From the sequence record NC_070871.1: a stretch of DNA of 64,000 bases. The stretch is one strand, 5' to 3'. A model generated the notes under the pieces. That model ran no database searches. It was not told the origin of the DNA and saw nothing but the letters and a program-made list of their open reading frames with translations. Source of the stretch: Escherichia phage PGN829.1. This document shows positions 1,926 to 2,240 of the stretch, in pieces. Numbering within the stretch: position 1 is the stretch's first letter; each line of letters begins with the position of its first letter. The position numbers and the translations under genes are program-made.

Positions 1926-2240
1926 TCAGGATTGCGTAGCAAGCCAATCCAGATATTCTTCTGGGTCATCGAAGTATTCATTACCATCTTCATAGAACCA
2001 GTCAACCCAACGGTCTTCTAGTTCCATATCGACTAGGTCTTGGTCAGTGAGGGACTCATCCCACATCTCAATACCGTTAGCATTAGCATAATCGCCTTTG
2101 ACATTGTTCTCATACTGAAATAGGTCATAGTCTGCTAATGCATTCTTAATCTTAACAGCTTCCTGAAGACTGTCTGTTTCTACATGAAATGCCTTCATTG
2201 GCACTTGAGGAATGTGCCATACACGTAATTTTTGCGTCAT
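1926..2240 (-). CDS. acidic small protein (hypothetical)
   Basis: D/E- and W-rich 104-aa ORF; AGGAG RBS upstream. Confidence 0.45.
   Translation of the reverse strand: MTQKLRVWHIPQVPMKAFHVETDSLQEAVKIKNALADYDLFQYENNVKGDYANANGIEMWDESLTDQDLVDMELEDRWVDWFYEDGNEYFDDPEEYLDWLATQS

What the first reader, a model, noticed from the sequence alone, without database searches (positions are those of the whole stretch)
1926..2240. Acidic small proteins as possible DNA-mimic or anti-restriction candidates
The 104-aa ORF at 1926-2240 (DESLTDQDLVDMELEDRWVDWFYEDGNEYFDDPEEYLDWL) and the 72-aa ORF at 10817-11035 are strongly acidic with aromatic residues, the usual look of Ocr/ArdA-like DNA mimics. The 146-aa Glu/Pro-rich protein at 50878-51318 is another acidic candidate. 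I found no homology evidence.
Basis: inference. Interest (0 to 1): 0.35.

Follow-up and report, generated by a model that had tools for sequence, protein, structure and literature searches.

The report
P22 gp17-like acidic counter-defence protein
The flagged acidic 104-residue protein is real, but it is an ordinary member of a known phage family (P22 gene 17 / N4 gp18) that lets phage P22 grow on Fels-2 lysogens; nothing shows it to be an Ocr/ArdA-type DNA mimic.

Summary
The window is a Gamaleyavirus (G7C/Bp4-like, N4-related E. coli podophage).

- **Observation:** it holds. The three ORFs exist on the minus strand and are the three most negatively charged of 76 candidate proteins in the window.
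- **"No homology evidence":** this is wrong for the main ORF. ORF 1926-2240 matches Pfam PF17420 "GP17" (E 3e-46). It is 63% identical to P22 gene 17 ("allows growth on phage Fels2 lysogen") and 62% to N4 gp18, at the N4-syntenic position.
- **Gene status:** it is an optional cassette between two terminator-like hairpins. It is under purifying selection and absent from several close relatives.
- **Structure:** a confident AlphaFold model (pLDDT 94.8) is a compact alpha/beta domain with no significant match to any solved structure, DNA mimics included. Conservation sits in non-acidic N-terminal motifs. The quoted acidic stretch lies in the more variable C-terminal half, partly in an optional segment.
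- **Best reading:** a soluble counter-defence protein that blocks a prophage-encoded exclusion or abortive-infection system by direct binding. The Fels-2 AbiU/AIPR protein is my inferred candidate target.
- **Other two ORFs:** ORF 10817-11023 is an unknown-function gene in a hypervariable early slot. ORF 50878-51318 is the N4 gp47 homologue of the replication module.
- **Relevance to restriction:** a restriction-resistant relative (Bas96) lacks the first two ORFs.

The parts
1926..2240 (-). ORF A: 104-aa acidic protein, member of Pfam PF17420 (P22 gp17 / N4 gp18 family)
   Evidence: Family matches: Pfam GP17 E 3.2e-46, 155.9 bits against a cutoff of 25, covering 2-96 of 98 profile positions; PHROG 1510 E 8e-50. 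Identity: 63% to P22 gene 17 and 62% to N4 gp18. Structure: AF2 pLDDT 94.8. Selection: dN/dS about 0.20 against ST4.
2246..2252 (-). Shine-Dalgarno-like AGGAGAG; its GGAG core (2251-2248) lies 7 nt upstream of the ORF A start codon
   Evidence: Read directly from the sequence.
2266..2284 (-). Terminator-like hairpin between the Hoc-like decoration gene and ORF A (upstream edge of the cassette)
   Evidence: 7-bp stem, 5 G-C pairs, followed by a T-run. It is part of the ~380-bp segment missing in UE-M3.
1854..1876 (-). Terminator-like hairpin immediately downstream of ORF A
   Evidence: 9-bp stem followed by TTTTTTT. It is conserved in UE-M3 and ST4.
10817..11023 (-). ORF B: 68-aa acidic protein of unknown function (PHROG 19873); the TTG at 11035 would give 72 aa
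   Evidence: GGAG at 11033-11030, 6 nt before the ATG at 11023. 150 homologues of 62-70 aa carry the motifs TDNFGGDYPDEKF, RYWKVV and a C-terminal LQPGFEP. AF2 pLDDT 90.9. No PDB fold match.
11036..11053 (-). Conserved inverted repeat AGTAGATA-AC-TATCTACT at the upstream edge of the variable slot that holds ORF B
   Evidence: Conserved in the window, UE-M3 and ST4, while the gene that follows differs in each.
10797..10811 (-). Conserved hairpin AGACGC-TCC-GCGTCT at the downstream edge of the ORF B slot
   Evidence: Conserved in all three phages.
50878..51318 (-). ORF C: N4 gp47 homologue. It has a small N-terminal domain, a basic patch (residues 56-72), a Glu/Pro-rich acidic linker and a C-terminal KPSLFAGLKRS motif
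   Evidence: PHROG 7641 E 5e-68. The G7C homologue, gp47, is annotated as similar to N4 gp47. The gene directly follows the SSB and RuvC-like genes. The C-terminal motif is shared with SSB.

Best explanation
ORF A is the Gamaleyavirus orthologue of N4 gp18 and P22 gp17. It is a soluble, cytoplasmic, strongly acidic alpha/beta protein of about 100 residues, made from a self-contained optional cassette just downstream of the phage RNA polymerase II and decoration genes. Its most likely role is counter-defence: it neutralises a prophage-encoded exclusion or abortive-infection system of the kind carried by P2-like prophages such as Fels-2, so that the infection is not aborted.

The most likely mechanism is stoichiometric binding of the defence protein. 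The contact surface would be the near-invariant face formed by the beta1-beta2 loop (RVWHIPQVP), the end of helix 1 (LADYDxFQ) and the following loop (NxxKxDYxNxxG). The variable acidic C-terminal half would add electrostatic, possibly nucleic-acid-like, contacts.

Shown here: family membership, synteny with N4, optional-cassette structure, purifying selection, the confident fold model and the conservation pattern.
Taken from annotation and literature: the Fels-2 phenotype of P22 gene 17.
Inferred by me: direct binding, and the Fels-2 AbiU/AIPR protein (STM2723.1) as the target.
For: Family membership:
- Pfam PF17420 E 3.2e-46 and PHROG 1510 E 8e-50.
- 63% identity to P22 gene 17 and 62% to N4 gp18.
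- Same gene order as N4: RNAP1, RNAP2, 32-kDa virion protein, gp18.

Function of the founder:
- P22 gene 17 is annotated "allows growth on phage Fels2 lysogen". It sits in the PL operon, which also carries ral, abc1 and abc2.

Accessory-gene behaviour:
- Clean indel of about 380 bp between hairpins relative to UE-M3.
- Absent from Bas96.
- About 14 phage records carry a copy at >= 80% identity, against 86 records that match the surrounding 12 kb.

Protein properties:
- No hydrophobic segment (maximum KD19 0.06), so it is not a membrane exclusion protein.
- 15 invariant residues in 66 sequences, 14 of them within residues 6-56 plus W78. The same pattern holds in 219 aligned sequences (218 family members plus ORF A).
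- dN/dS is 0.055 in the N-terminal half and 0.34 in the C-terminal half.
- Acidity is a family trait: 95% of 268 members have pI < 5.
- Compact fold, pLDDT 94.8, pTM 0.83.

Spread: 1,167 clusters at 50% identity, in podo-, myo- and temperate phages of enterobacteria and in Bacillus phages.

Candidate target: the Fels-2 cargo hotspot holds STM2723.1, which matches PADLOC AbiU at E 2.7e-112 and Pfam AIPR at E 9e-43. PMC3853940 notes that Fels-2 carries abiU.
Against: - No experiment on this protein, N4 gp18 or any Gamaleyavirus homologue was found in ten literature searches.
- The P22 phenotype comes from a record note and a secondary citation. I could not read the primary paper.
- The AbiU link is guilt by location only. 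A second Fels-2 cargo gene, STM2726 (no defence-family match), could equally be the exclusion determinant.
- The Fels-2 AbiU allele is found in only 7 of 5,426 complete E. coli genomes at the DNA level.
- The only published anti-AbiU protein, Surt, is unrelated to ORF A.
- About 50% identity between Bacillus-phage and enterobacterial-phage members would also fit a conserved host target rather than a defence protein.
Confidence: 0.55

Rival explanations
1. DNA-mimic anti-restriction protein. The acidic surface imitates the DNA backbone and occupies the DNA-binding groove of type I restriction enzymes or other DNA-binding defence proteins, as Ocr and ArdA do.
For: - pI 4.05 and net charge -18 over 104 aa, the most acidic protein of the window.
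- Acidity is conserved across the family.
- The acidic C-terminal half is folded, not disordered (pLDDT 94-96).
- In P22 the homologue lies about 0.6 kb downstream of ral (restriction alleviation), in the same operon.
- Known DNA mimics have unrelated folds (my own knowledge), so the lack of a fold match does not exclude mimicry.
Against: - No Ocr or ArdA profile match at E <= 1.
- No solved structure matched at E <= 0.001. The best hit is ERH at E 0.77, TM 0.37-0.45, and the uracil-DNA glycosylase inhibitor p56 appears only at E 5.6, TM 0.22.
- The invariant residues are mostly aromatic or polar and lie in the N-terminal 56 residues, while acidic positions are only loosely conserved. Residues 64-77 of the quoted stretch are present in only 36-78% of members.
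- The founder's phenotype is escape from a prophage exclusion system, not from restriction.
- Bas96 is considerably restriction-resistant without this gene.
Confidence: 0.12
2. Host-takeover factor that binds a conserved housekeeping protein (for example a nuclease, a protease, or part of the transcription or translation machinery). On this reading the Fels-2 phenotype is an indirect consequence.
For: - Very high conservation across phages of Proteobacteria and Bacillus: 50-52% identity to SP-10-like phages.
- The gene sits among early or middle small genes in every phage examined.
Against: - The gene is dispensable and patchily distributed among near-identical Gamaleyaviruses, which is more typical of strain-specific counter-defence.
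- The only reported phenotype is specific to the lysogen.
Confidence: 0.18
3. Small-ligand sponge or small enzyme. A conserved pocket rich in aromatic and polar residues sequesters or modifies a nucleotide-type immune signal, as Tad1, Tad2 and Acb2 do.
For: - The invariant set R6, W8, Q12, F18, Y38, D39, F41, Q42, K48, D50, Y51, N53, W78 mixes stacking and hydrogen-bonding residues on adjacent loops.
- The same genome carries a Tad2-like domain protein, so sponge-type counter-defence occurs in this phage.
Against: - No fold or sequence similarity to any known sponge or enzyme.
- A net charge of -18 is unfavourable for binding anionic nucleotides.
- AbiU/AIPR and the other Fels-2 cargo are not known to signal through small molecules (my own knowledge).
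Confidence: 0.08
4. A true superinfection exclusion protein, as the database name says, which blocks entry or development of secondary phages.
For: Database names only: "superinfection exclusion protein" in Pfam, PHROG and many GenBank records.
Against: - The record for the founder says the opposite: it lets P22 grow on an excluding lysogen.
- The protein has no signal peptide or membrane segment.
- It is carried mostly by virulent phages in early or middle gene arrays.
Confidence: 0.04

Closest known systems
Salmonella phage P22 gene 17 product (Pfam PF17420 GP17; NP_059600)
   Same: - 63% identity over 97% of the length.
- Same length class, with the same invariant motifs.
- Acidic.
- Small stand-alone gene followed by a terminator.
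   Different: - P22 is a temperate Lederbergvirus and the gene lies in the PL operon. Here it is in a virulent N4-like podophage, just downstream of the phage RNA polymerase II and decoration genes.
- The C-terminal acidic segment differs: P22 lacks the YEDGNEYF insertion.
- Function in E. coli hosts is untested.
Escherichia phage N4 gp18 (ABK54387, annotated "similar to P22 gp17")
   Same: 62% identity and the same position after RNAP1, RNAP2 and the 32-kDa decoration protein, which makes it an orthologue by synteny.
   Different: It belongs to a different genus (Enquatrovirus). In Gamaleyavirus the gene is optional, present in only a minority of records. No function has been reported for N4 gp18.
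Ocr (T7 gp0.3) and ArdA DNA-mimic anti-restriction proteins
   Same: Small, very acidic (pI about 4), rich in aromatic residues, expressed before late genes, and carried by mobile elements or phages.
   Different: - No sequence-profile match.
- No fold match.
- Conservation lies in a non-acidic surface rather than in a charge pattern.
- The founder's phenotype is not restriction alleviation.
Surt, the anti-AbiU protein of Vibrio phage 1.217.O (bioRxiv 10.1101/2024.06.14.598830)
   Same: It would share a target class if the AbiU inference is correct.
   Different: Surt is 195 aa and unrelated in sequence (BLASTP E 6.6).
N4 gp47 (relevant to ORF C only)
   Same: The G7C homologue of ORF C (gp47) is annotated as similar to N4 gp47, and ORF C occupies the same position after gp44 (ATPase), gp45 (SSB) and gp46 (RuvC-like).
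   Different: The acidic linker differs in sequence and length between genera, while the N-terminal domain and the C-terminal SLFxxLKR tip are kept. Its function is unknown.

Membership tests
Pfam PF17420 GP17 (P22 gene 17 family) | Profile score above the curated gathering threshold, over the full domain | tested here: met
   155.9 bits against a cutoff of 25, E 3.2e-46. Residues 4-100 align to profile positions 2-96 of 98. PHROG 1510 E 8e-50.
Pfam PF17420 GP17 (P22 gene 17 family) | Presence of the family's invariant residues (R6, W8, P11, Q12, F18, L35, Y38, D39, F41, Q42, K48, D50, Y51, G56, W78) | tested here: met
   All are present in ORF A. They are invariant in 66 aligned members and at least 89% conserved among 219 aligned sequences, i.e. 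218 family members plus ORF A.
Pfam PF17420 GP17 (P22 gene 17 family) | Direct similarity to the founder, P22 gp17 | tested here: met
   63.4% identity over residues 4-104, E 1e-36 against the phage collection and 4e-41 locally.
Pfam PF17420 GP17 (P22 gene 17 family) | Phenotype: permits growth on an excluding (Fels-2) lysogen | not testable with these tools
   Known only for P22, from the record note and PMC6486243. Testing ORF A requires plating experiments.
Ocr / ArdA DNA-mimic anti-restriction proteins | Sequence-profile membership (Pfam Ocr or ArdA models) | tested here: not met
   The Pfam scan at E <= 1 returned only GP17 for ORF A, a weak DUF7336 hit for ORF B, and Menin and Lin-8 noise for ORF C.
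Ocr / ArdA DNA-mimic anti-restriction proteins | Fold similar to a solved DNA mimic | tested here: not met
   Foldseek against the PDB gave no hit at E <= 0.001 for ORF A (best ERH, E 0.77) or for ORF B (best E 1.1).
Ocr / ArdA DNA-mimic anti-restriction proteins | Strong net negative charge, pI about 4 | tested here: met
   ORF A has pI 4.05 and net -18. ORF B has pI 4.18-4.29. ORF C has pI 4.35. These are the top three of 76 ORFs.
Ocr / ArdA DNA-mimic anti-restriction proteins | Surface carboxylates arranged like B-DNA phosphates, usually on an elongated dimer | not testable with these tools
Only the secondary structure and confidence were returned.
Ocr / ArdA DNA-mimic anti-restriction proteins | Relief of type I restriction in vivo | not testable with these tools
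   Indirect evidence only: Bas96 lacks ORF A and ORF B yet is considerably restriction-resistant.
Surt-type anti-AbiU proteins | Sequence similarity to Surt | tested here: not met
   BLASTP E 6.6.
N4 gp47 family (ORF C) | Homology and conserved position after the SSB and RuvC-like genes | tested here: met
   PHROG 7641 E 5e-68. The G7C homologue, gp47, is annotated as similar to N4 gp47. The gene order was confirmed in the window, G7C and KP8.

The most novel reading that the evidence does not exclude
The gp17/gp18 family, with more than a thousand 50%-identity clusters in phages of both Gram-negative and Gram-positive hosts, would be a structurally new class of inhibitor of AbiU/AIPR-type abortive-infection proteins, the cargo of the Fels-2 hotspot. 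It would bind through its invariant N-terminal face and use its folded acidic half as a nucleic-acid decoy. That would identify the determinant behind a prophage-exclusion phenotype attributed to a 1989 paper and supply the first widespread anti-AbiU factor.
Probability: 0.18. Interest if true: 0.6.

Novelty: already known. Interest (0 to 1): 0.3.

Why it matters
As it stands, the finding corrects an annotation more than it makes a discovery.

- The main ORF is a known, publicly annotated family member. Its database name, "superinfection exclusion protein", is misleading, because the founder helps a phage escape exclusion.
- The family is nevertheless large: 1,167 clusters at 50% identity. It is highly conserved across unrelated phage types, has no solved structure, matches no known fold and has no known mechanism.
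- This work yields a concrete hypothesis: the Fels-2 AbiU/AIPR gene, or its neighbour STM2726, is what P22 gene 17 and its N4-like homologues counteract. A few plating assays would test it.
- For phage therapy with Gamaleyaviruses, presence or absence of this cassette could affect host range on lysogens.

Tried and rejected
- **Ocr/ArdA membership:** no profile hit and no fold hit. Rejected as family membership, though not as a mechanism.
- **PDB sequence searches:** single-sequence and profile searches for ORF A, ORF B and ORF C found nothing significant. The EfpL / elongation-factor-P-like hit to the acidic tail (E 0.02; NCBIfam 12.8 bits against a cutoff of 216) is a short compositional match and was rejected.
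- **Weak ERH-like fold resemblance of ORF A:** several ERH chains appear among the top hits, but E >= 0.77 and TM <= 0.47, which is not significant.
- **Are ORF A and ORF B related?** Both touch DUF7336 weakly, but hhalign gives a probability of 0.6%. Rejected.
- **Is ORF A a homologue of Surt, the published anti-AbiU protein?** No.
- **Literature:** ten full-text searches found no mechanism for P22 gp17, N4 gp18 or PF17420, only genome announcements. The P2-hotspot preprint does not mention AbiU or Fels-2.
- **Ecological support for AbiU as the target in E. coli:** the Fels-2 allele occurs in only 7 of 5,426 complete genomes at the DNA level. This is uninformative, because divergent AIPR genes would be missed.
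- **PHROG "RusA-like resolvase" hit of ORF C:** E 7e-6, to positions 145-262 of a 311-position profile. It probably reflects the low-complexity tail or a fused neighbour and was not pursued.
- **My recollection that P22 gene 17 concerns Fels-1:** the record and the paper both say Fels-2.

Full report
**What the window is.** The first 12 kb match G7C/Bp4-like E. coli podophages (genus Gamaleyavirus, Schitoviridae, relatives of N4) at 88-95% identity, with 68-77% coverage in the 20 best records. Genes in 1-12.6 kb and 47.4-64 kb run on the minus strand. The early and middle region therefore reads from about 12.6 kb down to 1, and continues from the other end of the window.

**The observation.** All three ORFs exist at the stated coordinates, on the minus strand.
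- ORF A (1926-2240) is 104 aa, pI 4.05, net charge -18, with 15 aromatic residues. The quoted peptide is residues 61-100.
- ORF B (10817-11035) is 72 aa from a TTG start. A GGAG lies 6 nt before the ATG at 11023, and homologues are 62-70 aa, so the real product is 68 aa with pI 4.29.
- ORF C (50878-51318) is 146 aa with 29 Glu and 12 Pro, pI 4.35.

In a greedy call of 76 ORFs, these three rank first, second and third for negative charge per residue. The median pI is 6.1. The compositional observation is therefore correct and not a chance feature of an acidic proteome.

**ORF A has clear homology.**
- It matches Pfam PF17420 "GP17, superinfection exclusion gene product 17" at E 3.2e-46 (155.9 bits, cutoff 25) over the whole domain. 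It also matches PHROG 1510 at E 8e-50.
- tblastn finds it in 323 phage records: 63% identity to P22 gene 17, 62% to N4 gp18, about 58% to Kuttervirus (Ackermannviridae) phages, and about 52% to Bacillus SP-10-like phages.
- A profile search of 1.84 billion representatives finds 1,167 clusters at E <= 0.001.
- N4 has the same gene order: RNAP1, RNAP2, the 32-kDa virion decoration protein, then gp18, which is annotated "similar to P22 gp17". ORF A is therefore the N4 gp18 orthologue.
- A protein 100% identical is encoded in Gamaleyavirus AN24P2.

**What the family is known to do.** The P22 reference record describes gene 17 as [quoted passage not shown]. The gene lies in the PL operon, which also carries ral, kil, erf, abc1 and abc2. 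[quoted passage not shown] 1989. The family name is therefore misleading: the founder is a counter-exclusion factor. Ten full-text searches found no mechanism, no structure and no work on N4 gp18.

**Anatomy of the locus.**
- ORF A has a Shine-Dalgarno sequence (AGGAGAG at 2252-2246).
- It is bracketed by two terminator-like hairpins, at 2284-2266 and 1876-1854.
- Phage UE-M3 lacks a clean segment of about 380 bp containing the upstream hairpin and the ORF. ST4 has both. Bas96 also lacks the gene.
- About 14 phage records carry a copy at >= 80% identity, against 86 records that match the region.
- Against ST4, dN/dS is about 0.20 overall, 0.055 for residues 1-60 and 0.34 for residues 61-104.

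It is thus an optional, self-contained, selected gene, which is the usual profile of an accessory counter-defence gene.

**Structure and conservation.** With a 66-sequence alignment, AlphaFold2 gives pLDDT 94.8 and pTM 0.83. The model is a compact domain with the order beta1, beta2, alpha1, beta3, alpha2, beta4, alpha3, and no disordered part.
- Foldseek against the PDB gives no hit at E <= 0.001. The best hit is ERH at E 0.77 with TM 0.37-0.45, and no DNA mimic ranks meaningfully.
- Against predicted viral structures, only family members match.
- PDB sequence and profile searches are empty.

The invariant residues (R6, W8, P11, Q12, F18, L35, Y38, D39, F41, Q42, K48, D50, Y51, G56, W78) cluster in the beta1-beta2 loop, the end of helix 1 and the loop that follows. 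The acidic C-terminal half is variable. Residues 64-77, the core of the quoted stretch, are occupied in only 36-78% of members. Net acidity is nevertheless a family trait: 95% of 268 members have pI < 5 and the median net charge is -13. There is no hydrophobic segment.

**Interpretation.** The pattern is a sharply conserved, mostly non-acidic surface plus a folded but fast-evolving acidic half. It fits a specific protein-binding inhibitor better than a generic DNA mimic, whose charge pattern rather than side-chain identity is usually what is conserved (my own knowledge). DNA mimics have no common fold, however, so a nucleic-acid-like contribution from the acidic half remains possible.

**A candidate target (inference).**
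- In the Fels-2 genome, the cargo region between the portal gene and the DinI and replication genes holds two non-structural genes.
- STM2723.1 (565 aa) matches PADLOC AbiU at E 2.7e-112, Pfam AIPR at E 9e-43 and the PHROG "Abi alpha-like abortive infection" family.
- STM2726 (243 aa) has no defence-family match.

AbiU/AIPR is therefore the most obvious candidate for the Fels-2 exclusion that gene 17 overcomes, but this rests on location only. The single published anti-AbiU protein, Surt, is unrelated to ORF A. The Fels-2 allele is rare in complete E. coli genomes (7 of 5,426).

[quoted passage not shown] Bas96 has neither ORF A nor ORF B at the syntenic loci. Neither gene is therefore needed for the restriction resistance typical of the genus.

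**ORF B.**
- It matches PHROG 19873 (unknown function) and has only a sub-threshold DUF7336 hit.
- It has 150 homologues with near-invariant motifs: TDNFGGDYPDEKF, RYWKVV and a C-terminal LQPGFEP.
- The model is confident (pLDDT 90.9) and small, of beta-beta-alpha-beta type, with no PDB fold match. It is unrelated to ORF A.
- No other Gamaleyavirus in the phage collection carries it. The nearest copies are in a Klebsiella phage, Serratia Ackermannviridae, and Stenotrophomonas and Xanthomonas phages.
- It sits in a cassette slot bounded by conserved hairpins (11053-11036 and 10811-10797). UE-M3 and ST4 hold entirely different genes in that slot.

It is a reasonable but untested host-takeover or counter-defence candidate. 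Nothing links it to restriction.

**ORF C.**
- It matches PHROG 7641, and its G7C homologue (gp47) is annotated as similar to N4 gp47.
- It matches 67 phage records, all Escherichia, Klebsiella, Shigella or Gamaleyavirus, and most of its listed database homologues lie on ~70-73-kb contigs.
- It immediately follows the gp44 ATPase, gp45 SSB and gp46 RuvC-like genes.
- It has a small N-terminal domain, a basic patch, a Glu/Pro-rich linker and a conserved C-terminal tip.

It is a conserved gene of the replication and recombination module, not an accessory anti-restriction gene.

**Verdict.** ORF A is an already known, publicly annotated family member. The mechanism of the family remains open, and the AbiU hypothesis is cheap to test.

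Noticed in passing
window 50878-51318(-) and 51874-52671(-); L006, L007: The C-terminus of the gp47 homologue (KPSLFAGLKRS) resembles both the C-terminus (GGKSLFGKR) and the N-terminus (MSLFSNLKEK) of the neighbouring SSB. The motif is kept in Klebsiella phage KP8 (KPSLFANLKR; KKSLFGKK; MSTLFGKLKDK) even though the acidic linker has diverged. This suggests a shared short docking motif, SLFxxLK(R).
   Followed up: partly
window 47438-47965(-): A 175-aa protein whose residues 94-175 match Pfam PF11195, the Tad2-like (Thoeris anti-defence 2) domain, at E 2.8e-24. It is a more conventional counter-defence candidate than the flagged ORFs.
   Followed up: partly
window 48610-50870: About 2.2 kb has no ORF of 70 aa or more on either strand. 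Relatives annotate tRNA-Cys, tRNA-Ile and tRNA-OTHER here. ARAGORN finds no tRNA or tmRNA anywhere in the window, and Rfam gives only sub-threshold tmRNA-like hits at 49832-49984(-).
   Followed up: partly
window 10797-11101(-): This is a hypervariable early-gene slot. Conserved hairpins flank a gene that is completely different in the window (acidic, 68 aa), in UE-M3 (basic, 67 aa) and in ST4 (acidic 119 aa plus basic 68 aa).
   Followed up: partly
window 4674-5267(-), between 5257-6075(-) and 3455-4672(-): A 197-aa ORF sits between the two N4-type RNA polymerase II subunit genes, where relatives annotate an HNH homing endonuclease. UE-M3, ST4 and Bas96 carry variants of different length at the same spot.
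   Followed up: no
window 661-987(-): A 108-aa protein with an N-terminal signal-peptide-like sequence gives a weak, sub-threshold Rap1a (type VI secretion immunity) hit at E 0.002. It is annotated Tai4 in UE-M3, which is an odd cargo for a virulent phage.
   Followed up: no
proteins P0014, P0023 (homologues on ~72-kb contigs): Some N4-like phages encode a 154-aa form of the gp17-like protein. It carries a 50-aa N-terminal extension with a Walker-A-like GAPGTGKS or GAQCIGKS motif. This could be a fusion or a miscalled start.
   Followed up: no
L005 (Fels-2) 22639-25335: The Fels-2 cargo region holds an AbiU/AIPR gene (PADLOC E 2.7e-112) and an adjacent 243-aa gene of unknown function, PHROG 1353. 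A nearly identical AIPR gene occurs in 6 complete E. coli genomes.
   Followed up: partly
L002 (ST4) 1963-2277 and 9359-9835: There are annotation errors in relatives. The gp17-like gene is called "superinfection exclusion protein A", and the homologue of window ORF 10306-10782 is called "integrase" although it has no Pfam support.
   Followed up: no
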